Of a stretch of 32,441 bases of DNA, positions 1-32,441 are shown piece after piece. The number at the start of each line of letters is the position of its first letter. Position 1 is the stretch's first letter. Made by a program: the position numbers and the translations under genes. Under the pieces are notes generated by a model. It saw nothing but the letters and a program-made list of their open reading frames with translations, was not told the DNA's origin and made no database searches. Source of the stretch: a virus (lineage: Duplodnaviria; Heunggongvirae; Uroviricota; Caudoviricetes); IMG/VR virus record IMGVR_UViG_2541047895_000011. One strand, written 5' to 3'.

Positions 1-1011
1 TTATAACGTCACTCCGCCTTTTAGTGGATTCAGAGCGACGGCATTTTGCAGGTAGTCAGGCGCAAGGTGCGCATAGGCCATCGTCTGCTGAATGCTCGCA
101 TGTCCCAGAATCTGTTGCAGTGCGATTATATTGCCCCCGTTCATCATGAAATGGCTTGCGAATGTATGCCGCAGGATGTGGGTTGCCTGATTGGGTGGTA
201 TATCAGGTTTCACTCTGCGTAAAATCCCGCAAAATTTCTCATAATCAACTTTGAATAATTTGGCGCTTGCCTCCTCTTTAACTTTTTTCTCCAGTTCCTC
301 AGAAATCGGCACGGTTCGCTTTTTACCGTTTTTGGTTTTCAGGAAGGTAACCCTGCAATTTGTAATCTGTGCTGGTTTTAGCGTGGCAACTTCCGTCCAT
401 CTTCCTCCAGTGCTCAGACATAAAAGCGCGACAAGTAAGTCATCACCAGCCAAAACATTTAACAGTTTTTCGATTTCTGCTTTTTCCAGGAACGTCATTT
501 CAGGGTTGGCCTCCGCCAGTGGCGGCAGTCCGTGAATTGGGTGTTGCCCGGAAAATTCATCCAATTGAATTAATTTTGTGAACATGCCGGATAATCGGTA
601 CATGTCACGGTTTATCGTTGCGGCACTGATACCATCACGTAGTCGTATGGAACGATAATCCATCAAAGCCCTTTTGCTCATCCGGCTCACTGGTATATCA
701 CCTATGCCGCTGATGGTTTTGAGTAGATGATTAAACTCTTTTGTTCCATGCTCGTGGTTTTGCCCGTGATATTTCCACCAGATGTCCAGCAACTCACTCA
801 AAGTTCGGCGGTCTGCTCGCTGGCCTCCCCATTCTTTCTGACTGGCATTGGCGATTGTGTATCGCTCAAATGCTAGTGCTTCAGCTTTTCTTTCGAATTT
901 CCTGCGGATGCGTTTTCCGTCGCGACCGCGAGGTCTAATGTCCACTTCATAGCGACCATCATCGAGCTTCTTAATTGCCATAAGAAAGCCCTCCGGCGCT
1001 GTATTCACCAT
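1..1011 (-). CDS. int: Phage integrase (tyrosine recombinase), P2 Int-like
   Basis: 336-aa ORF; C-terminal region has the tyrosine-recombinase pattern (HILRHTF ... LGHASIQQTMAYAHL with the terminal Tyr); lies immediately downstream of the C repressor on the same strand, as in the P2 C-int operon. Confidence 0.9.
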   Translation of the reverse strand: MVNTAPEGFLMAIKKLDDGRYEVDIRPRGRDGKRIRRKFERKAEALAFERYTIANASQKEWGGQRADRRTLSELLDIWWKYHGQNHEHGTKEFNHLLKTISGIGDIPVSRMSKRALMDYRSIRLRDGISAATINRDMYRLSGMFTKLIQLDEFSGQHPIHGLPPLAEANPEMTFLEKAEIEKLLNVLAGDDLLVALLCLSTGGRWTEVATLKPAQITNCRVTFLKTKNGKKRTVPISEELEKKVKEEASAKLFKVDYEKFCGILRRVKPDIPPNQATHILRHTFASHFMMNGGNIIALQQILGHASIQQTMAYAHLAPDYLQNAVALNPLKGGVTL

Positions 1012-3237: not shown

Positions 3238-3509
3238 GTATTCGTATTGAAATTGGCGAACGTTATGTCGTTACCAGTGACAGCTTTCAGTTTATTCTCC
3301 ACGAGAAAAAGAGAGCTGAAAGCGGTAAAAATGCCGGTCAGGAATGGCTGGCGGTAGTTGGTTATTACCCGAAATTAAGCCAGCTCGTTTCCGGCCTGAT
3401 GCATCACGATATTCTGACCGGAAGCGCAAAATCTTTTGCTGATTTAAACGCGCAGGTTGAGCAACTCAGCAAGCGTTGTTCAGAGGCTTTTGGCTCACAT
3501 GGCCGTTAA
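3234..3509 (+). CDS. Hypothetical early protein (position of P2 orf83)
   Basis: 91-aa ORF; its stop overlaps the start of A. Confidence 0.5.
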   Translation: MSIRIEIGERYVVTSDSFQFILHEKKRAESGKNAGQEWLAVVGYYPKLSQLVSGLMHHDILTGSAKSFADLNAQVEQLSKRCSEAFGSHGR

Positions 3510-5808
3510 AGCCTCCGGGCATTTTGTCCCTCCGTCAGCATTTGCCGCAGGCACCGGTAAGACGTTTACCGGTGCTTATGCATGGAACGCGCCACGCGAG
3601 GCCGTCGGGCGCGAAAGACCCCTTACACGTGACGAGATGCGTCAGGTGCAAGGTGTTTTATCCACGATTAACCGCCTGCCTTACTTTTTGCGCTCGCTGT
3701 TTACTTCACGCTATGACTACATCCGGCGCAATAAAAGCCCGGTGCACGGGTTTTATTTCCTCACATCCACTTTTCAGCGTCGTTTATGGCCGCGCATTGA
3801 GCGTGTGAATCAGCGCCATGAAATGAACACCGACGCGTCGTTGCTGTTTCTGGCAGAGCGTGACCACTATGCGCGCCTGCCTGGAATGAATGACAAGGAG
3901 CTGAAAAAGTTTGCCGCCCGTATCTCATCGCAGCTTTTCATGATGTATGAGGAACTCTGCGATGCCTGGGTGGATGCGCATGGCGAAAAAGAATCGCTGT
4001 TTACGGATGAGGCGCAGGCTCACCTGTATGGTCATGTTGCTGGCGCTGCACGTGCTTTCAATATTTCCCCTCTCTACTGGAAAAAATACCGTAAAGGACA
4101 GATGACCACGAGGCAGGCATATTCTGCCATTGCCCGTCTGTTTAACGATGAGTGGTGGACTCATCAGCTTAAAGGCCAGCGTATGCGCTGGCATGAGGCG
4201 TTATTGATAGCTGTCGGGGAGGTCAATAAAGACCGTTCTCCTTATGCCAGTAAACATGCCATTCGTGATGTGCGTGCGCGCCGTCAGGCAAATCTGGAGT
4301 TTCTTAAATCGTGTGACCTTGAAAACAGGGAAACCGGCGAACGCATCGACCTTATCAGTAAGGTGATGGGCAGTATTTCTAATCCTGAAATTCGCCGGAT
4401 GGAGCTGATGAACACCATTGCCGGTATTGAGCGTTACGCCGCCGCAGAGGGTGATGTGGGGATGTTTATCACGCTGACCGCGCCGTCAAAGTATCACCCG
4501 ACACGTCAGGTCGGAAAAGGCGAAAGTAAAACCGTCCAGCTTAATCACGGCTGGAATGATGAGGCATTTAATCCGAAGGATGCGCAGCGTTATCTCTGCC
4601 GTATCTGGAGCCTGATGCGCACGGCATTCAAGGATAATGATTTACAGGTCTACGGTTTGCGAGTCGTCGAGCCACACCACGACGGAACGCCGCACTGGCA
4701 TATGATGCTTTTTTGTAATCCACGCCAGCGTAACCAGATTATCGAAATCATGCGTCGCTATGCGCTCAAAGATGATGGTGACGAAAGAGGAGCCGCGCGA
4801 AACCGTTTTCAGGCAAAACACCTTAACCGGGGCGGTGCTGCGGGATATATCGCGAAATACATCTCAAAAAACATCGACGGCTATGCACTGGATGGTCAGC
4901 TCGATAACGATACCGGCAGGCCGCTGAAAGACACTGCCGCGGCTGTTACCGCATGGGCGTCAACGTGGCGCATTCCGCAATTTAAAACGGTTGGCCTGCC
5001 GACAATGGGGGCTTACCGTGAACTACGCAAATTGCCTCGCGGCGTCAGCATTGCTGATGAGTTTGACGAGCGCGTCGAGGCTGCACGCGCCGCCGCAGAC
5101 AGTGGTGATTTTGCGTTGTATATCAGCGCGCAGGGTGGGGCAAATGTCCCGCGCGATTGTCAGACTGTCAGGGTCGCCCGTAGCCCGTCGGATGACGTTA
5201 ACGAGTACGAGGAAGAAGTCGAGAGAGTGGTCGGCATTTACGCGCCGCATCTCGGCGCGCGTCATATTCATATCACCAGAACGACGGACTGGCGCATTGT
5301 GCCGAAAGTTCCGGTCGTTGAGCCTTTGACTTTAAAAAGCGGCATCGCCGCGCCTCGGAGTCCTGTCAATAACTGTGGAAAGCTCACCGGTGGTGATACT
5401 TCGTCACCGGCTCCCACGCCTTCTGAACACGCCGCAGCAGTGCTTAATCTGGTAGATGACGGTGTTATTGAATGGAATGACCCGGTGGTCGTGAGGGCGC
5501 TCAGAGGCGCATTAAAATACGGCCTGAGAAGACCAAACCGTCAGCAAAGAAACGGAATACCGTTAAAACCGCATGAAATAGCACCATCGGCCAGGCTGAC
5601 CCGGTCAGAACGAATGCAAATTACCCGTATCCGTGTTGACCTTGCTCAGAACGGTATCAGGCCTCAGCGATGGGAGCTTGAGGCGCTGGCGCGTGGGGCG
5701 ACCGTAAATTATGACGGGAAACAATTTACGTATCCGGTTGCTGATGAGTGGCCGGGATTTTTACAAACAGAAATTGTTTTTGGGATTAATAAGTTATCTC
5801 TAAGCTAA
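3499..5808 (+). CDS. A: Rolling-circle replication initiator endonuclease, P2 gpA-like
   Basis: Large ORF (track 3457..5808); ATG at 3499 (MAVKASG...) overlaps the upstream stop and matches the P2 A N-terminus as I recall it; contains the tyrosine-rich motif GYIAKYISKN typical of rolling-circle initiators. Confidence 0.9.
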   Translation: MAVKASGHFVPPSAFAAGTGKTFTGAYAWNAPREAVGRERPLTRDEMRQVQGVLSTINRLPYFLRSLFTSRYDYIRRNKSPVHGFYFLTSTFQRRLWPRIERVNQRHEMNTDASLLFLAERDHYARLPGMNDKELKKFAARISSQLFMMYEELCDAWVDAHGEKESLFTDEAQAHLYGHVAGAARAFNISPLYWKKYRKGQMTTRQAYSAIARLFNDEWWTHQLKGQRMRWHEALLIAVGEVNKDRSPYASKHAIRDVRARRQANLEFLKSCDLENRETGERIDLISKVMGSISNPEIRRMELMNTIAGIERYAAAEGDVGMFITLTAPSKYHPTRQVGKGESKTVQLNHGWNDEAFNPKDAQRYLCRIWSLMRTAFKDNDLQVYGLRVVEPHHDGTPHWHMMLFCNPRQRNQIIEIMRRYALKDDGDERGAARNRFQAKHLNRGGAAGYIAKYISKNIDGYALDGQLDNDTGRPLKDTAAAVTAWASTWRIPQFKTVGLPTMGAYRELRKLPRGVSIADEFDERVEAARAAADSGDFALYISAQGGANVPRDCQTVRVARSPSDDVNEYEEEVERVVGIYAPHLGARHIHITRTTDWRIVPKVPVVEPLTLKSGIAAPRSPVNNCGKLTGGDTSSPAPTPSEHAAAVLNLVDDGVIEWNDPVVVRALRGALKYGLRRPNRQQRNGIPLKPHEIAPSARLTRSERMQITRIRVDLAQNGIRPQRWELEALARGATVNYDGKQFTYPVADEWPGFLQTEIVFGINKLSLS

Positions 5809-5930
5809 GACGCTCAAAGCAAGAGATTATTTTACTGTACGTAGCCATCTGGAATTGTGGCTGTGTTAAAACGCTCGAGATTTTTTGGATATCCAGTTAT
5901 ACTCCGCTTAGAAATCATTCGGAGACTAAG

Positions 5931-6977
5931 ATGGCGGTAAAAGTTGTTGATCTTTTTTGCGGTGCTGGCGGTTTAACGCACGGCTTACATTTGGCCGGAT
6001 TGGACGTTGTCGCAGGCATTGATTTAGAAGGTGAGTGTCGTGTTGCATACGAAAGCAATAATGATGCACTTTTTATTGAAAAAGATATATCTCTGGTGAC
6101 AAAAGATGAAATCGAAAATCTTTTTGAAGGGGCAAGTGTTAAAGTATTGGCCGGATGTGCACCTTGTCAGCCATTTTCTAAATATACTCAGGGAAAAGAT
6201 AAAAAAAATGATAAAAAGTGGCCGTTATTATATGAGTTTGAACGTTTAATAAAAGACACGAAACCAGAAATAGTTACAATGGAAAACGTTCCTGATGTGA
6301 CAAAACATTCTGTCTATGATGATTTTTATAATACCTTAATAGCATTGGGTTATTATGTTTGGGCAAATAAGATTGAATGTGTAGATTTTGAGGTTCCGCA
6401 AAACAGAGTGAGGCATGTATTACTCGCATCTAAATTTGCGCCGATTTCTCTGATGAAACCACAAACATCGGTAAAGCTGACAGTTAGGGATTGCATTGGT
6501 AATTTACCTTCGATTGAAGCGGGACAAGCAGATCCAAAAGACCCTCTCCATAAGGCGAGTAGATTGAGTGAAATTAATCTCAAACGTATTCTACATTCAA
6601 AACCGGGGGGGACATGGAGGGATTGGCCTGCTGAATTAATCGCTTCATGTCATGCCAAGAAAAGTGGGCAGGGATATGCCAGTGTTTATGGTCGTATGTC
6701 TTGGGATAAACCGAGTCCAACGATAACTACACTTTGTTATGGTTTTGGTAATGGACGTTTTGGTCATCCCGAGCAGCATCGTGCAATCTCACTTAGGGAA
6801 GCAGCATTACTTCAAACGTTTCCTGTTACATATTCATTTACCCAACCGGGCGAGCCGATCAAAATGAAAAATGTCGGGCGTATGATAGGTAATGCTGTTC
6901 CTGTAAACTTAGGTAAAGCGATTGGTCTTTCAATAGTACATCATTTGAAAGAGTTTCACCCCGCCGCTCTTAAATAA
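5931..6977 (+). CDS. DNA (cytosine-5)-methyltransferase, Dcm family
   Basis: 348 aa with motif I (DLFCGAGG), catalytic PCQ motif IV (GCAPCQPFS), ENV motif VI (MENVPDV), QNRVR motif VIII and a C-terminal GNAVPV motif; GGAG Shine-Dalgarno 6 nt upstream of the ATG; AT-rich compared with the phage backbone. Confidence 0.9.
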   Translation: MAVKVVDLFCGAGGLTHGLHLAGLDVVAGIDLEGECRVAYESNNDALFIEKDISLVTKDEIENLFEGASVKVLAGCAPCQPFSKYTQGKDKKNDKKWPLLYEFERLIKDTKPEIVTMENVPDVTKHSVYDDFYNTLIALGYYVWANKIECVDFEVPQNRVRHVLLASKFAPISLMKPQTSVKLTVRDCIGNLPSIEAGQADPKDPLHKASRLSEINLKRILHSKPGGTWRDWPAELIASCHAKKSGQGYASVYGRMSWDKPSPTITTLCYGFGNGRFGHPEQHRAISLREAALLQTFPVTYSFTQPGEPIKMKNVGRMIGNAVPVNLGKAIGLSIVHHLKEFHPAALK

Positions 6978-7675
6978 GCCTGAGTATCAAGATAAGTTTG
7001 TATATTTTCAAGGATGCAGTTGAGATAATGAAAAACTTCATCCTTCATTTCTGTTAGTGTATCAATAGATGTATCTCTGCCTTTGTTTCTAAATGATTCA
7101 GAACCATGAGCAAGGTCGTTTCTGGCCTTTTTTATTGGAAGTAAATTGCAACCATTTCGCGTTATTTCTGAATCTGTATCTGCTGAGAAGCCATATTTTT
7201 CAGCGACTTCTCTAATTTTTCTAGCATCAACATTTCCAGAAAATAACGGATTTTTATTTGATTGGATAAGTTTTTTGTGAGCGTTTAGCCACTCTTTAAA
7301 TATAACTTTTGCAATGTTCCCTTGTGAGAAATCTATTTTCCCATTTGGTGATTGTAAACTATGAAATGCTACTCTTGTAAGGTTTTCATTTACAGTGTCT
7401 GCACATAATGATTCATTAGACATTAAAACATTATGAATGTCTTCTATTGCATTGGAAATGGTTGCTTCAATGAGATTGTACAATATAATAAATGCATTAG
7501 CCTTTAAAATATGAGTCATGTCAATATCAATGGGTTGTTGTATAGGCGCATCGCTTGTATTCTCTTTATAGACTAGAGATGGTTTTTTGTTTATTAGTAA
7601 CTGAATGAATGAGAAGTATTCATTAATATCTTGCATTCTTTCTTGGAAAAGAATTTTACTTGTCATCTCCTCCAT
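6956..7675 (-). CDS. HEPN-like protein (candidate Rx4H motif, RNDLAHG), putative RNase effector
   Basis: 239-aa ORF, second gene of the leftward operon, 10 nt downstream of the DUF262 gene; near the C-terminus, KKARNDLAHGSESF fits the HEPN Rx4-6H signature; AT-rich. Domain call is by eye and not profile-verified. Confidence 0.55.
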   Translation of the reverse strand: MEEMTSKILFQERMQDINEYFSFIQLLINKKPSLVYKENTSDAPIQQPIDIDMTHILKANAFIILYNLIEATISNAIEDIHNVLMSNESLCADTVNENLTRVAFHSLQSPNGKIDFSQGNIAKVIFKEWLNAHKKLIQSNKNPLFSGNVDARKIREVAEKYGFSADTDSEITRNGCNLLPIKKARNDLAHGSESFRNKGRDTSIDTLTEMKDEVFHYLNCILENIQTYLDTQAYLRAAG

Positions 7676-7685
7676 TTACTTGGCC

Positions 7686-8831
7686 TCACTCCATATTTTC
7701 ATCTTCATTTTCATCTTCGTCGACAATATTTTCTGGAATGTCTTTCCCAAGCAACTTGTTTTTTACATATTCAATGCGTGCTTTAACTTTGGGTTTAGAG
7801 TTGCTGGCATCTGAACGTGTGTGCGTGATAAACTCTTTCGAGTTGATCCAGTCATCAATATTTTTAGGAACTAAATTGGGTTCTTCCTCTAGTGCTAATG
7901 TTGCACCGACGGCAAGAGCTTCGAAACGAATCCTAGGAACAGTGGTGGCGTTTTTCACCTTTCTGAAACCATTTGGGAAATGTGTATTAATGAATTGGCA
8001 CATTTTATGAAATTTTTCCGCCAGCATAGCTGCGTTTTCATCTGTATATTCGGCATTTTTACGTTTTAAATAGGTTGTAAGAAATTCATCAACGCTTTTT
8101 CTGAAATCAAGATATTCTTCAGTGTAGGCAAAGTAGCGTAGTGCCAATTCTGGATATTCAGAGCGACGTTTTCTTGCATCTCCCAAAGGACAGATGCTAT
8201 GAAATAGAGGATCTTCGGAAATTTCATTGATAAATGCAAGGAATGGCCCATCATGGCTACCTTGCCGTTGTTCCATTGTTGTTAGTTTTTTTCCGCCAGT
8301 ATTCAGACGGTCAAAAATTTCCCTTCTTGTCTCTTCGTCACAATGTTCTGTAAGTTCAATCATTCGAATAGTTTTTCTATCAAAACGTAGGCGACGGGGA
8401 GTACTGAAATCAGAATATTTAAAACCATTGGCTGTGACTAATTTCTGCAGGCCTTCAAGAGTTAGTTTGTTATTGGTAAATTGGTGTAGGGTTCTTATTC
8501 GTTGGCTACCGTCAACAATTTCAAGTCTACCTTCATTTTCACCTGAACCAATATCGGCAACGAATATGTAAGGTATAGGAAGATTTAAAAGCAGAGATTC
8601 AATGAAACGGGATTTTTGCTTGTTGTTCCAGATAAACTCCCTTTGGTAGTCAGGTATAAAAAGCTCTGCCTCATCTTCTTCAAGACCATTCTGAAATTTG
8701 TCCACAATAACACTTATCGGGAACTCACGTATTTCATGGTCAGTGATTTTTTGCATTTCAACTATGCTTTGATCTAAAAGCTCCTTTTCTTCTTTAGTTT
8801 TTGGGGTATGTTCTGCTTTTTTTCTCGCCAT
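7686..8831 (-). CDS. DUF262 / ParB-like (GmrSD N-terminal-type) protein with acidic C-terminal tail
   Basis: 381 aa; N-terminal region has the DUF262 hallmarks (IPDYQREFIW followed by EIVDGSQRIRTL, a DGQQR-type motif); no recognisable DUF1524/HNH module; C-terminus is DEDENEDENME; first gene of the leftward operon starting near cos. Confidence 0.75.
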   Translation of the reverse strand: MARKKAEHTPKTKEEKELLDQSIVEMQKITDHEIREFPISVIVDKFQNGLEEDEAELFIPDYQREFIWNNKQKSRFIESLLLNLPIPYIFVADIGSGENEGRLEIVDGSQRIRTLHQFTNNKLTLEGLQKLVTANGFKYSDFSTPRRLRFDRKTIRMIELTEHCDEETRREIFDRLNTGGKKLTTMEQRQGSHDGPFLAFINEISEDPLFHSICPLGDARKRRSEYPELALRYFAYTEEYLDFRKSVDEFLTTYLKRKNAEYTDENAAMLAEKFHKMCQFINTHFPNGFRKVKNATTVPRIRFEALAVGATLALEEEPNLVPKNIDDWINSKEFITHTRSDASNSKPKVKARIEYVKNKLLGKDIPENIVDEDENEDENME

Positions 8832-8970
8832 GAGCTTATTATCCTACTATGCGTGTGATTGCATTAAATTGCATGTTAAACAAAAGCATAATCTATATCA
8901 GTCAATCAGCCAGTGGCAAGGTGTTGTGATTACAATGCAACTGCATTAGAACCGACTCATGAAGCGGGCG

Positions 8971-8989
8971 GGCGAGGCGGGGAAAGCAC
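8971..8989. other. Candidate cos site (19-nt P2-type cohesive end, GGCGAGGCGGGGAAAGCAC)
   Basis: Sequence matches the P2 cohesive-end sequence as I recall it, and sits where expected, between the A-side cargo and Q. Confidence 0.6.
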
Positions 8990-9158: not shown

Positions 9159-10193
9159 TCAGCCGTTGTCAGTGTCCAGTGAGTAGTTTTTAAAGCGGAT
9201 GACCTCCTGACCGAGCCAGCCGTTTATCTCGCGGATCCTGTCCTGTAGCGGGATAAGCTCATTGCGGACAAAGACCTTTGCCACTTTCTCAATATCGCCC
9301 AGCGACCCGACGTTTTCCGGCTTGCCACCCATCAACTGAAAGGGGATGCGGTGCGCATCAAGCAGGTCAGCGGCGCTGGCTTTTTTGATATTAAAAAAAT
9401 CGTCCTTCGTTGCCACTTCACTGAGCGGGATAATTTTAATACCGTCGGCTTTTCCCTGTGGGGCGTAGAGAAACAGGTTTTTAAAGTTGTTGCGGCCTTT
9501 CGACTTCACCATGTTTTCGCGAAGCATTTCGATATCGTTGCGATCCTGCACGGCATCGGTGACGTACATGATGTATCCGGCATGTGCGCCATTTTCGTAA
9601 TACTTGCGGCGGAACAGCGTGGCCGACTCATTCAGCCAGGCAGAGTTAAGGGCGCTGAGATATTCCGGCAGGCCGTACAGCTCCTGATTAATATCCGGCT
9701 CCAGCAGGTGAAACACGGAGCCGGGCGCGAAGGCTGTCGGCTCGTTGAAGGACGGCACCCACCAGTAAACATCCTCCTCCACGCCACGGCGGGTATATTT
9801 TGCCGGTGAGGTTTCCAGTCTGATGACCTTACCGGTAGTGCTGTAACGCTTTTCCAGAAACGCATTACCGAACACCAGAAAGTCCAGCACAAAGCGGCTG
9901 AAATTCTGCTGTGAAAGCCACGGATGCGGGATAAATGTCGAGGCCAGAATATTGCGTTTAACGTAAATCGGCGAGCTGTGATGCACGGCAGCACGCAGGC
10001 TTTTTGCCAGACCGGTAAAGCTGACCGGCGGCTCATACCATCTGCCGTTACTGATGCACTCAACGTAATCCAGAATGTCACGGCGGTCGAGTACCGGCAC
10101 CGGCTCGCCAAAGGTGAATGCCTCCATTTTCGGGGCGCTGGCGGTCATTTTTTTTGCCGCAGGTTGCGGTGTTTTCCCTTTTTTCTTGCTCAT
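9159..10193 (-). CDS. Q: Portal protein, P2 gpQ-like
   Basis: 344 aa, identical in length to P2 Q; adjacent to cos and transcribed leftward together with P. Confidence 0.9.
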   Translation of the reverse strand: MSKKKGKTPQPAAKKMTASAPKMEAFTFGEPVPVLDRRDILDYVECISNGRWYEPPVSFTGLAKSLRAAVHHSSPIYVKRNILASTFIPHPWLSQQNFSRFVLDFLVFGNAFLEKRYSTTGKVIRLETSPAKYTRRGVEEDVYWWVPSFNEPTAFAPGSVFHLLEPDINQELYGLPEYLSALNSAWLNESATLFRRKYYENGAHAGYIMYVTDAVQDRNDIEMLRENMVKSKGRNNFKNLFLYAPQGKADGIKIIPLSEVATKDDFFNIKKASAADLLDAHRIPFQLMGGKPENVGSLGDIEKVAKVFVRNELIPLQDRIREINGWLGQEVIRFKNYSLDTDNG

Positions 10194-23555: not shown

Positions 23556-23776
23556 GTTGTATAAGCTCTGGTGTGAGATTACATATCTATGGCACAGAGT
23601 AAAGCCTAATCTGACAGGCCGCTCTGTGTCTGGAGTAGATTTTAGTAAAGCATTATTTCATTAGTGCAAATTCTAAACAATACATTTTATGTATATGATA
23701 TCCTGCGGACTTTAATGACTTGGTTTAGGCTAACCAGATAACACTGAAGGAATATTTTTGATAATTAAGGTGCGGT

Positions 23777-24370
23777 ATGTTTACTAAGCGACGATTAAAA
23801 AATATTAACTGGGAGGCAAGTTCAGTGATTCTTGCTATGGTTCTCTTTGTTGGAAATATATTTTATACAAATCATCGTGATGATATAAGCATGGAGGCTG
23901 AGAGAGACAGTATCAGAACAATGTTTGCATATGAAATCGCTAATAACCATCGCGCTCTCACTTTTCTTGATAAAACGAGAAATATTGGCTTTGACGAAAA
24001 TTCGGAGCATTTTGTTGGCGAGCCTTTTGCCATTAATGTCGAATCATTAGGAGGGCCTCGCTTACAGATTGCATTAAACCAGACTGATAAAGTTTTTAAA
24101 GCCTACTTCAGTGAATTAAGTAAACTTGATAAAGAGGATGTTACTCTTCTTATGGACTATTACCATGAGCAAAGCATCCTGCTGGAGTGTGTAAAATCTA
24201 CGTTAGAGAAGATGAAAAGCAATAATGATATTAAAGTTGATATTGATGGTTACTTATTAGAAGAACACTTCATGAATGAGTTTAATCTTTCTAATATTTT
24301 GCTTAAACGCTATAGCCATTTGTTGTCACAACACCTCAAAAAACCTGAAACAAAAGATTTACATAATTGA
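23777..24370 (+). CDS. Hypothetical membrane-anchored protein at the P2 Z/fun cargo position
   Basis: 197-aa ORF in an AT-rich island between G and FI; N-terminal hydrophobic segment (SSVILAMVLFVGNIFY); a terminator hairpin follows downstream; no motif I recognise. Confidence 0.6.
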   Translation: MFTKRRLKNINWEASSVILAMVLFVGNIFYTNHRDDISMEAERDSIRTMFAYEIANNHRALTFLDKTRNIGFDENSEHFVGEPFAINVESLGGPRLQIALNQTDKVFKAYFSELSKLDKEDVTLLMDYYHEQSILLECVKSTLEKMKSNNDIKVDIDGYLLEEHFMNEFNLSNILLKRYSHLLSQHLKKPETKDLHN

Positions 24371-24577
24371 TGATCTGCTAATGGTTATTCATGGGATAAC
24401 TATGTTTTATATGTAATCCAACTCAGATGAATTATTGATTCTGGATAATAACCGCAGAGCGGCATATACCCTGACAGGCAAATGTCCGCTTCTTGCTCAA
24501 AGCAGACTGTCAGATTTGATAACTTTTGGGTTATGTAAATTGTCAGTCGGAAAATGAGTGTGTGCAAATCAGGACAG

Positions 24578-24600
24578 GCGGGCGAATTGCCCGCTTTTTC
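24578..24600 (+). terminator. Rho-independent terminator downstream of the Z/fun-position ORF
   Basis: Hairpin GCGGGC-GAATT-GCCCGC followed by TTTTTCTTT. Confidence 0.65.
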
Positions 24601-31457: not shown

Positions 31458-31538
31458 ATCCTCAATTTGCCTGCTGCTTAATGCATTGCAGATGATTTGC
31501 TTCCGTTATACTACCGTCAGTTGATAGCGGGAGTATTT

Positions 31539-32441
31539 ATGAATCAATCTTATGGACGGCTGGTCAGTCGGGCGGCGATTGCTGCGACGGCGATGGCTTC
31601 GCTGCTATTGCTGATTAAAATTTTTGCATGGTGGTATACCGGGTCGGTGAGTATTCTCGCCGCGCTGGTGGATTCGCTGGTGGATATCGGCGCGTCGTTG
31701 ACGAATTTACTGGTGGTGCGATATTCCCTGCAACCTGCCGACGATAATCACTCGTTTGGTCACGGTAAAGCTGAGTCCCTCGCGGCGCTGGCGCAAAGTA
31801 TGTTTATCTCCGGTTCGGCACTATTCCTGTTTTTGACGGGTATTCAACATCTGGTATCTCCAACACCGATGACAGATCCAGGCGTCGGGGTTATCGTGAC
31901 AATTGTGGCGCTAATTTGTACGATTATCCTTGTCTCGTTTCAGCGTTGGGTGGTGCGCCGGACGCAAAGCCAGGCGGTGCGGGCTGATATGCTACATTAC
32001 CAGTCTGATGTTATGATGAACGGCGCAATTCTGCTGGCGCTGGGGTTGTCCTGGTACGGCTGGCATCGCGCCGATGCTCTGTTTGCATTGGGGATCGGCA
32101 TCTATATTTTATATAGCGCGTTACGCATGGGATATGAGGCGGTACAGTCATTACTGGATCGCGCATTGCCTGATGAGGAACGGCAAGAAATTATTGATAT
32201 CGTGACTTCCTGGCCGGGTGTTAGCGGCGCTCACGATCTTCGCACGCGGCAGTCAGGGCCGACCCGCTTTATTCAGATTCATTTGGAAATGGAAGACTCT
32301 CTGCCTTTGGTTCAGGCACATATGGTGGCGGATCAGGTAGAGCAGGCTATTTTACGGCGTTTTCCGGGATCGGATGTGATTATCCATCAGGACCCCTGTT
32401 CCGTCGTACCCAGGGAGGGTAAACGGTCTATGCTTTCATAA
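31539..32441 (+). CDS. fieF: Cation-diffusion facilitator, ferrous-iron/zinc efflux pump FieF (YiiP)
   Basis: Track ORF 31497..32441; the ATG at 31539 with a GGAG Shine-Dalgarno gives 300 aa beginning [53 protein letters not shown], which I recognise as enterobacterial FieF; marks the host flank. Confidence 0.9.

What the first reader, a model, noticed from the sequence alone, without database searches (positions are those of the whole stretch)
5809..8970. P2 tin/old hotspot carries a different three-gene cargo: C5-methyltransferase plus a DUF262/HEPN operon, a candidate undescribed defence system
Between A and cos, where P2 carries orf91/tin/old, this prophage has three genes with no counterpart in the P2 backbone. 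Their sequence is visibly more AT-rich than the flanking phage genes, suggesting horizontal acquisition. The A-to-cos interval of P2-like prophages is an established hotspot for anti-phage systems. The content here is a Dcm-type cytosine methyltransferase convergent with a leftward operon encoding a ParB-like DUF262 protein and a HEPN-like protein. I do not recognise this combination as a named system. It could be a modification-linked restriction module, a type IV-like modification-dependent nuclease, or an abortive-infection pair.
Basis: partly seen in the sequence, partly recalled or inferred. Interest (0 to 1): 0.9.

Follow-up and report, generated by a model that had tools for sequence, protein, structure and literature searches.

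The report
Methylase-linked DUF262–HEPN prophage defence cassette
A P2-type prophage carries, in its known defence hotspot, a cytosine methylase plus a DNA-sensor/RNase gene pair that very likely protects the host from other phages; the trio is real and untested, but the combination was already described computationally and is related to a validated system.

Summary
Between the P2 replication gene A and cos lies a 3.2 kb AT-rich insert (37.6% GC against 53.2% elsewhere). It holds a C5 cytosine methyltransferase (5931-6977, +), convergent with an operon of a ParB-like DUF262 protein (7686-8831, -) and a HEPN protein (6956-7675, -). All catalytic motifs are intact.

The claim that it is undescribed holds only in part. 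Anantharaman et al. [quoted passage not shown] Rousset et al. 2022 tabulate this arrangement among P2 hotspot loci. PD-T4-2, a DUF262 plus RiboL-PSP/MAE_28990-like HEPN pair, is a validated anti-T4 system.

PADLOC does not assign the locus. The DUF262 protein hits NsnA and PD-T4-2_A; the HEPN protein hits nothing. I found no experimental test of the trio.

The trio travels as a unit across phyla and mobile elements, and the methylase co-diverges with its partners. The pair also exists intact without a methylase.

Most likely mechanism, inferred: m5C marks self, the DUF262 NTPase reads DNA modification status, and the HEPN RNase is the effector.

In passing: a G7 tract in the methylase gene is G6 or G8 in two otherwise near-identical copies.

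It is a new member of a known kind, of moderate interest.

The parts
3457..5808 (+). P2 gpA replication endonuclease (left border of the hotspot)
   Evidence: ORF. Identical loci are annotated 'replication endonuclease'. PF05840 Phage_GPA in related loci.
5809..5930 (+). Intergenic region upstream of the MTase, with one promoter-like consensus match at 5875-5903
   Evidence: This is a consensus match only; the number of matches in the region equals the shuffle expectation.
5931..6977 (+). C5 cytosine DNA methyltransferase, 348 aa
   Evidence: PF00145 1.8e-54 and TIGR00675 2.9e-36. Orthologues at 47-80% identity accompany the DUF262-HEPN pair in other phyla. The target-recognition region, about residues 185-300, is conserved family-wide.
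6605..6611 (+). G7 homopolymer inside the MTase ORF (codons P-G-G of KPGGTW); a possible phase-variation or error-prone tract
   Evidence: It is G6 in CP027550, where RefSeq flags the gene 'frameshifted'. It is G8 in LR595873, where the CDS is split. It is G7 in six other copies.
6956..7675 (-). HEPN protein of the MAE_28990 family, 239 aa; predicted RNase effector
7686..8831 (-). ParB-like DUF262 protein, 381 aa (NsnA-like: ParB-DUF262 NTPase domain plus a C-terminal helical domain); predicted DNA sensor
8832..8970 (-). Upstream region of the DUF262-HEPN operon, with one promoter-like match at 8919-8890 and short imperfect repeats
   Evidence: Consensus matches only.
8971..8989 (.). P2 cos cohesive-end sequence GGCGAGGCGGGGAAAGCAC (right border of the cargo)
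   Evidence: Sequence read; exact match located. Its identity as P2 cos rests on my own knowledge.
9159..10193 (-). P2 portal protein Q (right flank)
   Evidence: Annotated 'phage portal protein' in identical loci.

Best explanation
The insert is a three-gene anti-phage cassette carried as a moron in the P2 A-cos hotspot. It belongs to the 'C5 methylase + ParB/DUF262 + MAE_28990-HEPN' gene neighbourhood.

Proposed mechanism:
1. The methylase places m5C at one fixed target sequence and so marks resident DNA as self.
2. The DUF262 protein is a ParB-type NTPase domain plus a helical DNA-binding domain. It has no nuclease domain of its own. It acts as the sensor that reads the modification status of DNA. 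I commit to unmethylated cognate sites on incoming DNA as the trigger.
3. The sensor switches on its operon partner, the HEPN protein. This cuts RNA through its Rx4H site and stops phage gene expression, probably at the cost of growth arrest of the infected cell.

Shown here: the gene content, the intact motifs, the folds, the hotspot location, and inheritance of the trio as a unit.

Inferred: methylation as the self mark, the direction of sensing, RNA as the target, and the outcome for the cell.
For: **Defence setting.** The cassette lies in the P2 hotspot that holds tin and old in P2 and validated systems in other P2-like prophages. Elsewhere the trio rides on Tn7-like elements, Moraxella prophages and a Klebsiella plasmid.

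**Pair architecture.** A DUF262 gene followed by a HEPN gene on the same strand is found in essentially all 90 surveyed loci. This is the architecture of PD-T4-2, which protects against T4 both in its native strain and in K-12. Its B protein hits RiboL-PSP at 97.8% and MAE_28990 at 96.9% by HHpred.

**Sensor role.**
- The NTPase motifs QRxxxW, DGxQR and FxxxN are intact and invariant.
- The profile match to NsnA is full length. Li et al. 2025 interpret NsnA as a ParB-DUF262 plus ParBDB DNA-binding sensor.
- The fold is closest to the modification-sensing proteins BrxU, SspE and DndI, and it lacks their HNH domain.

**Effector role.** The HEPN model is confident and resembles HEPN RNase toxins. 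R185, N186 and H190 are invariant.

**Methylase coupling.**
- An orthologous C5-MTase abuts or overlaps the HEPN 3' end in 40 of 67 intact loci. These include every non-cyanobacterial locus and span Gamma- and Betaproteobacteria, Bacteroidota, Acidobacteriota and Cyanobacteria.
- Two loci keep the linkage in a different gene order, MTase-DUF262-HEPN (L033, L075).
- MTase distances track those of DUF262 (r=0.93) and HEPN (r=0.87), Mantel p=0.0005.
- The MTase target-recognition region is as conserved as the catalytic core. This implies one fixed specificity across the family.
- Vsr, a usual companion of m5C methylases, sits next to the trio in two Betaproteobacteria.
Against: - No experiment exists for this trio in the searched literature.
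- The pair is tolerated without a linked methylase. There are 27 intact pair-only loci, 26 of them in cyanobacteria and an E. coli IncFIA plasmid pair. MTase remnants lie beside intact pairs in L077 and L080. PD-T4-2 works without a methylase. Two near-identical copies of this very cassette have a frameshifted MTase and an intact pair. Strict restriction-modification logic, where loss of the methylase is lethal, is therefore unlikely. An unlinked methylase or a BREX-like requirement could reconcile this.
- Characterised DUF262 proteins (GmrSD, BrxU, SspE) sense modified DNA, not unmodified DNA. The direction of sensing may therefore be the opposite of what I propose.
- The distance correlations partly reflect shared taxonomy.
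- The RNA target is inferred from the HEPN family only.
Confidence: 0.45

Rival explanations
1. This is a two-pronged restriction-modification system, as proposed by Anantharaman et al. 2013. The ParB-like DUF262 protein is itself the endoDNase that cuts unmethylated DNA, and the methylase is its antidote. The HEPN RNase is a PrrC-like second line, kept silent by the DUF262 protein and released when restriction fails.
For: This is the published interpretation of HEPN genes linked to R-M systems, and of ParB as an R-M DNase fold. A PADLOC Type II REase profile weakly matches the DUF262 domain at 8.9e-7. The methylase is tightly co-inherited. Vsr and MORC-like GHKL ATPases, both typical R-M companions, are neighbours in some loci.
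Against: In the characterised relatives (GmrSD, BrxU, SspE) the DUF262 domain is an NTPase/sensor, and cleavage is done by a separate DUF1524/HNH domain that is absent here. Intact pairs without a methylase, and methylase-frameshift copies, argue against a DNase that needs an antidote.
Confidence: 0.2
2. The methylase is a passenger or an independent function, such as anti-restriction for the prophage or epigenetic regulation. The DUF262-HEPN pair alone is the defence system. It would work like PD-T4-2 or a type IV system, by sensing modified phage DNA (for example T-even hmC) or another infection cue.
For: PD-T4-2 protects without any methylase. Pair-only loci are intact in cyanobacteria and on an E. 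coli plasmid. Characterised DUF262 proteins sense modified DNA. Rousset et al. label a Vibrio DUF262+HEPN_MAE_28990 locus 'Type-IV restriction'. Methylase-frameshift copies keep the pair intact.
Against: The same orthologous methylase follows the pair across at least four phyla and several kinds of mobile element. It usually overlaps the HEPN stop codon, and two loci keep the linkage in a rearranged order. Its target-recognition region is conserved. A passenger would not co-diverge with r=0.93.
Confidence: 0.2
3. The cassette is an addiction or post-segregational-killing module that stabilises the prophage and has no anti-phage role. The HEPN protein would be the toxin, with the DUF262 protein and/or methylation as its antidote.
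For: HEPN proteins are common toxins of toxin-antitoxin systems. Restriction-modification-like modules can act as addiction modules (established knowledge).
Against: The location is a hotspot where validated contents are anti-phage systems. The related pair PD-T4-2 gives phage protection. The pair survives loss of the methylase in several lineages.
Confidence: 0.05

Closest known systems
MAE_28990 HEPN / ParB (DUF262) / DNA methylase gene neighbourhood (Anantharaman et al. 2013, Biol Direct 8:15)
   Same: The same three components. The HEPN protein matches Pfam PF18737, which was built on this family. The DUF262 gene sits upstream in the same operon, and a DNA methylase is adjacent.
   Different: Nothing structural differs. 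That description is purely computational, with no named system and no experiment. Here the trio sits in a P2 prophage hotspot.
PD-T4-2 (Vassallo et al. 2022), a validated two-gene anti-T-even system from E. coli ECOR65
   Same: A DUF262 protein followed by a small HEPN protein of the RiboL-PSP/MAE_28990 group. The window DUF262 protein matches the PD-T4-2_A profile over nearly its full length, at 9.2e-35.
   Different: PD-T4-2 has no methylase within its cloned 1.8 kb. Its HEPN protein is shorter, and the window HEPN protein does not match the PADLOC PD-T4-2_B profile at all. The window DUF262 protein scores higher against NsnA than against PD-T4-2_A.
PD-lambda-5 (Vassallo et al. 2022), a prophage 'compacted RM+Abi' system
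   Same: A ParB-like domain, a HEPN domain and a DNA methylase act together as a prophage-borne defence.
   Different: There, ParB and HEPN (DUF4145 type) are fused in one protein and the methylase is a D12-class N6-adenine enzyme. Here there are two separate proteins and a C5 cytosine methylase. No PD-lambda-5 profile appeared among the PADLOC hits of the DUF262 or HEPN proteins.
Menshen (NsnABC; Millman et al. 2022; Li et al. 2025)
   Same: The DUF262 protein is NsnA-like over its full length (4.9e-55). It has a ParB-DUF262 domain plus a C-terminal helical domain that Li et al. interpret as a DNA-binding sensor. Some Menshen loci also sit next to methylases.
   Different: There is no NsnB ATPase and no NsnC inPIN-nuclease effector. 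The partner here is a HEPN protein.
GmrSD / BrxU / SspE (DUF262-DUF1524 enzymes)
   Same: The N-terminal DUF262 NTPase fold and motifs. BrxU and SspE are the best structural matches. In SspABCD-SspE, a modification module is coupled to a DUF262 sensor.
   Different: No DUF1524/HNH nuclease domain is present. The effector is a separate HEPN protein. The modification is m5C rather than hmC sensing or phosphorothioation.

Membership tests
MAE_28990-HEPN / ParB-DUF262 / methylase neighbourhood (Anantharaman 2013) | HEPN protein of the MAE_28990 family with an intact Rx4-6H motif | tested here: met
   PF18737 at 65.9 bits against a cut-off of 26.8. RNDLAH is invariant. HEPN fold confirmed.
MAE_28990-HEPN / ParB-DUF262 / methylase neighbourhood (Anantharaman 2013) | ParB-like (DUF262) gene in the same operon | tested here: met
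   The DUF262 gene lies 10 bp upstream on the same strand. The same adjacency is seen in about 90 related loci.
MAE_28990-HEPN / ParB-DUF262 / methylase neighbourhood (Anantharaman 2013) | Adjacent DNA methylase gene | tested here: met
   The C5-MTase is convergent and overlaps the HEPN gene by 22 bp. Orthologous MTases are present in 40 of 67 intact loci.
PD-T4-2 | PD-T4-2_A (DUF262) profile match | tested here: met
   PADLOC PDLC04027 at 9.2e-35, residues 59-356 against profile positions 55-357 of 363. NsnA scores higher.
PD-T4-2 | PD-T4-2_B (HEPN) profile match | tested here: not met
   No PADLOC family at E<=10 for the window HEPN protein, nor for two other variants. The two share only the Pfam-level group.
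PD-T4-2 | Protection against T4 and other T-even phages | not testable with these tools
   Needs plaque assays.
Menshen (NsnABC) | NsnA-like DUF262 protein | tested here: met
   PDLC03877 at 4.9e-55, full length.
Menshen (NsnABC) | NsnB ATPase and NsnC nuclease genes downstream of NsnA | tested here: not met
   The only neighbours are the HEPN and MTase genes. Neither has a PADLOC NsnB or NsnC hit.
GmrSD/BrxU type IV restriction enzymes | C-terminal DUF1524 His-Me/HNH nuclease domain fused to DUF262 | tested here: not met
Classical Type II restriction-modification | Methyltransferase with catalytic motifs | tested here: met
   PF00145 over its full length; FCGAGG, PCQ and ENV motifs.
Classical Type II restriction-modification | Cognate endonuclease that cuts unmethylated sites and is lethal without the methylase | tested here: inconclusive
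   No REase-fold protein is present. Intact pairs exist without an MTase, and MTase-frameshift copies exist, which argues against lethality. Enzymology is not testable here.
SspABCD-SspE / Dnd phosphorothioate systems | Phosphorothioate modification genes (sspABCD / dndA-E) | tested here: not met
   None lie in the insert or its flanks. There are only weak SspE N-terminal profile hits at E about 2e-4.

The most novel reading that the evidence does not exclude
The trio may be an m5C-based analogue of the Ssp/Dnd logic with an RNase output. The DUF262 protein would bind the m5C self-marks written by its co-evolving methylase, as BrxU, SspE and DndI bind modified DNA. That binding would license or restrain the HEPN RNase. 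Defence would then depend on the methylase, while losing the methylase would be harmless. The G7 tract in the methylase gene would act as a slipped-strand phase switch that turns the prophage's defence on and off in the population.
Probability: 0.15. Interest if true: 0.7.

Novelty: new member of a known kind. Interest (0 to 1): 0.4.

Why it matters
This is a compact, widely mobile cassette. It occurs in P2-like prophages, Moraxella prophages, Tn7-like elements, plasmids, and from Proteobacteria to Cyanobacteria. It couples a DNA methylase to a nuclease-less DUF262 sensor and an RNase.

Current PADLOC profiles miss it. How a DNA-modification signal would be passed to an RNA-cutting effector is unknown for this family and also for its validated relative PD-T4-2.

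The E. coli P2 version is easy to test genetically. Working it out would clarify what DUF262 sensors read when they lack their usual HNH partner. It would also show whether the methylase gives self/non-self discrimination.

The gene combination and the hotspot are both already in the literature, so this is an incremental finding.

Tried and rejected
1. **Named-system assignment.** PADLOC, NCBIfam and PHROGs gave no complete system. The HEPN protein has no PADLOC hit even at E<=10.
2. **Menshen.** Rejected, because there is no NsnB or NsnC.
3. **GmrSD-type enzyme.** Rejected, because there is no DUF1524 domain.
4. **Direct comparison with PD-T4-2.** I tried to obtain real PD-T4-2 sequences. The ECOR65 contig is not in the collections. 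An E. coli plasmid DUF262+HEPN pair (pVE155, L102) turned out not to be PD-T4-2 either: the A profile scores 125 bits and the B profile gives nothing.
5. **Methylase target sequence.** PDB sequence matches (DNMT1, M.HaeIII, M.HhaI) cover only generic motifs and do not reveal specificity.
6. **Alternative methylases in pair-only loci.** I checked whether genes downstream of MTase-less pairs hide another methylase. They are unrelated genes that I read as housekeeping from their sequences alone, without a family search.
7. **Promoters and terminators.** The scan gave no more matches than shuffled sequence, so it carries no regulatory evidence.
8. **Poly-G survey.** Pattern scans of the viral and metagenome collections found only three further copies, all G7. 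This is too few to separate phase variation from homopolymer sequencing error.
9. **Literature.** Searches for an experimental study of the trio found none.
Full report
**1. What is there**

The window is a complete P2-like prophage. It runs from the integrase at 1-1011 to a host cation-efflux gene starting at 31497.

Between the replication gene A (3457-5808) and the P2 cos sequence GGCGAGGCGGGGAAAGCAC (8971-8989) there are three ORFs:
- A C5 cytosine methyltransferase, 5931-6977 (+), 348 aa. It matches PF00145 at 1.8e-54.
- A HEPN protein, 6956-7675 (-), 239 aa. It matches PF18737 HEPN_MAE_28990 at 7.6e-18 and PF18735 RiboL-PSP at 7.6e-7.
- A DUF262 protein, 7686-8831 (-), 381 aa. It matches PF03235 at 4.7e-28.

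The DUF262 and HEPN genes are 10 bp apart on the same strand. The methylase gene is convergent and overlaps the HEPN 3' end by 22 bp.

The insert is 37.6% GC against 53.2% for the rest of the window. No other stretch of the same length falls below 44.1%.

RefSeq annotation of identical loci gives replication endonuclease | methyltransferase | HEPN-like nuclease | DUF262 | portal | terminase. The cassette is 99.97% identical to the deposited phage Peduovirus P24B2.

**2. The proteins**

*DUF262 protein.* Three motifs that define the DUF262 nucleotide-binding centre are invariant in 22 homologues that are 53-90% identical. They are QRxxxW (QREFIW), DGxQR (DGSQR) and FxxxN (FDRLN). The C-terminal half is equally conserved, with motifs VPRIRFE and HTRSDASNS.

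It matches the PADLOC NsnA profile (Menshen) over its full length at 4.9e-55, and PD-T4-2_A at 9.2e-35. Li et al. 2025 interpret this two-domain layout as a ParB-DUF262 NTPase plus a 'ParBDB' DNA-binding domain, that is, a sensor.

It has no PADLOC match even at E<=10. The same holds for two other variants.

**3. Is the trio a unit?**

I surveyed about 100 loci from genomes, metagenomes, phages and plasmids.

The DUF262-then-HEPN arrangement is present in essentially all of them.

Evidence that the methylase belongs with the pair:
- An orthologous C5-methylase (47-80% identical to the window's) lies convergent and abutting or overlapping the HEPN gene in 40 of 67 loci with intact pairs. This includes every non-cyanobacterial locus.
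- These loci cover three diverged variants in the E. coli P2 hotspot and P2-like prophages of other Enterobacterales.
- They also cover a non-phage chromosomal site in Vibrio cholerae, Thalassotalea, a Cytophagales MAG, and many cyanobacteria.
- Tn7-like elements in Pseudomonas and a Rhodocyclaceae bacterium, and a chromosomal locus in Achromobacter, also carry it. Vsr sits beside it in the two Betaproteobacteria and a GHKL ATPase in the first two loci.
- It is also in Moraxella catarrhalis phages Mcat24-32 and a Klebsiella plasmid.
- In a Beggiatoa-like MAG and an Acidobacteria MAG the methylase sits upstream on the same strand. The linkage therefore survives rearrangement.
- Methylase distances correlate with those of DUF262 (r=0.93) and HEPN (r=0.87). 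Part of this reflects shared taxonomy.
- The methylase's target-recognition region (about residues 185-300) is as conserved as its catalytic core. This points to a single specificity kept across the family.
- Relative rates are methylase slower than DUF262, and DUF262 slower than HEPN. For Moraxella against E. coli the identities are 59%, 46% and 29%.

Evidence that the pair can stand alone:
- There are 27 intact pair-only loci in a few subclades, 26 of them cyanobacterial and one an unclassified MAG. Their downstream genes are unrelated genes that I read as housekeeping from their sequences alone.
- One E. coli IncFIA plasmid carries an intact pair without a methylase.
- Two cyanobacterial loci show methylase remnants beside intact pairs.
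- Twenty-four of the 25 loci with a truncated pair lack the methylase; most are one orthologous Microcoleus locus with a truncated DUF262 gene.

**4. What is known**

The combination is not new.
- Anantharaman et al. [quoted passage not shown] They propose that HEPN RNases linked to R-M systems act as a PrrC-like second line of defence.
- Rousset et al. [quoted passage not shown] The accessions are those of the third E. coli variant I retrieved, and a further entry matches the second variant. Neither DUF262 nor methylase appears in their table of tested systems.
- Vassallo et al. 2022 validated PD-T4-2, a DUF262 protein plus a HEPN protein hitting RiboL-PSP/MAE_28990. It works against T4 in its native strain and in K-12, without a methylase.
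- They also validated PD-lambda-5, a ParB-HEPN fusion plus an adenine methylase. They call it a compacted RM+Abi system.
- Li et al. 2025 note methylases next to Menshen loci. [quoted passage not shown]

I found no paper that tests this trio.

**5. Mechanism**

*Best-supported reading.* This is a modification-coupled sensor-effector defence. The methylase marks self. The DUF262/ParBDB NTPase reads DNA modification status. [quoted passage not shown]

I commit to 'unmethylated site = non-self'. My confidence in the full chain is about 0.45. My confidence that this is an anti-phage cassette of the DUF262-HEPN kind is about 0.85.

*The main difficulty.* The pair tolerates absence of the methylase (section 3), and known DUF262 proteins sense modified DNA. 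The system is therefore not a classical restriction-modification system in which the methylase is an antidote.

*Rivals.*
- The 2013 two-pronged model, with the DUF262 protein as DNase and the HEPN protein as backup (0.2).
- A methylase-independent pair working like PD-T4-2 or a type IV system (0.2).
- A pure addiction module (0.05).

*Most novel reading not excluded.* An Ssp-like logic in which m5C self-marks license the sensor, possibly with phase-variable methylase expression (0.15).

**6. Noticed in passing**

The only indels among eight near-identical copies of the cassette lie in a G7 tract inside the methylase gene (window 6605-6611).
- It is G6 in E. coli 2015C-4136CT1, where RefSeq flags the gene as a frameshifted pseudogene.
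- It is G8 in the Peduovirus P24B2 record, where the CDS is split.
- It is G7 in six others.

The DUF262 and HEPN genes are intact in all eight copies. This is either slipped-strand phase variation or homopolymer sequencing error. The data cannot tell which.

**7. Verdict**

The feature is real and correctly located, and it is probably a defence system. It is a member of an already described gene neighbourhood, it is catalogued in this very hotspot, and it is related to a validated system. It is untested experimentally, and its mechanism, especially the role of the methylase, is open.

Interest is 0.4. Novelty: new member of a known kind.

Noticed in passing
window 6605-6611 (inside the MTase ORF): A G7 homopolymer is the only indel site among eight near-identical copies of the cassette. 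It is G6 in CP027550 (MTase flagged frameshifted) and G8 in the phage record LR595873 (split CDS). It is G7 in the window, CP059907, CP141736, two IMG/VR contigs and one metagenome contig. The DUF262 and HEPN genes are intact in all. This is either phase variation or homopolymer sequencing error. The diverged Citrobacter-type variant (L009) also has G7; other variants use interrupted codons.
   Followed up: partly
window 23560-24600 (ORF 23777-24370, +): A second AT-rich insert (30-36% GC) lies between the tail-fibre assembly gene and the sheath gene, which is the position of the second P2 hotspot (Z/fun). It encodes a 197-aa protein with an N-terminal hydrophobic segment. It has no Pfam family and only a marginal PADLOC hit (PDC-M46A, E=0.0046).
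   Followed up: partly
L091 (Pseudomonas, Tn7-like), L092 (Rhodocyclaceae), L093 (Achromobacter): In these loci the same trio is accompanied by a Vsr very-short-patch repair endonuclease (L092, L093) and/or a GHKL/MORC-like HATPase_c_3 protein (L091, L092). It sits next to Tn7 transposition genes in L091 and L092 only. In L091 the ATPase gene lies between the HEPN gene and the methylase gene.
   Followed up: no
L101 (Moraxella phage Mcat32, 2327-5224) and eight sister phages: Moraxella catarrhalis prophages unrelated to P2 carry the same trio in the same arrangement. Identities to the window are MTase 59%, DUF262 46% and HEPN 29%. All three genes are annotated 'hypothetical protein'.
   Followed up: yes
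L006-L008, L016 and about 20 other Microcoleus loci: One orthologous cyanobacterial locus has lost the methylase and carries a DUF262 gene cut to about 180 codons beside a full-length HEPN gene. In L089 the opposite holds: the pair is truncated and the methylase is intact. These look like stages of decay of the cassette.
   Followed up: partly
L102 (E. coli IncFIA plasmid pVE155, 2415-4115): A DUF262 (353 aa) plus MAE_28990-type HEPN (211 aa) pair lies next to the plasmid partition genes, without a methylase. It is not recognised as PD-T4-2 by PADLOC either.
   Followed up: partly
window 1-1011 and 31497-32441: The window spans the whole prophage, from the integrase at the left end to a host cation-efflux (FieF-like) gene at the right end. 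In an identical lysogen, cpxP flanks the integrase. The prophage is therefore inserted between cpxP and the efflux gene.
   Followed up: no
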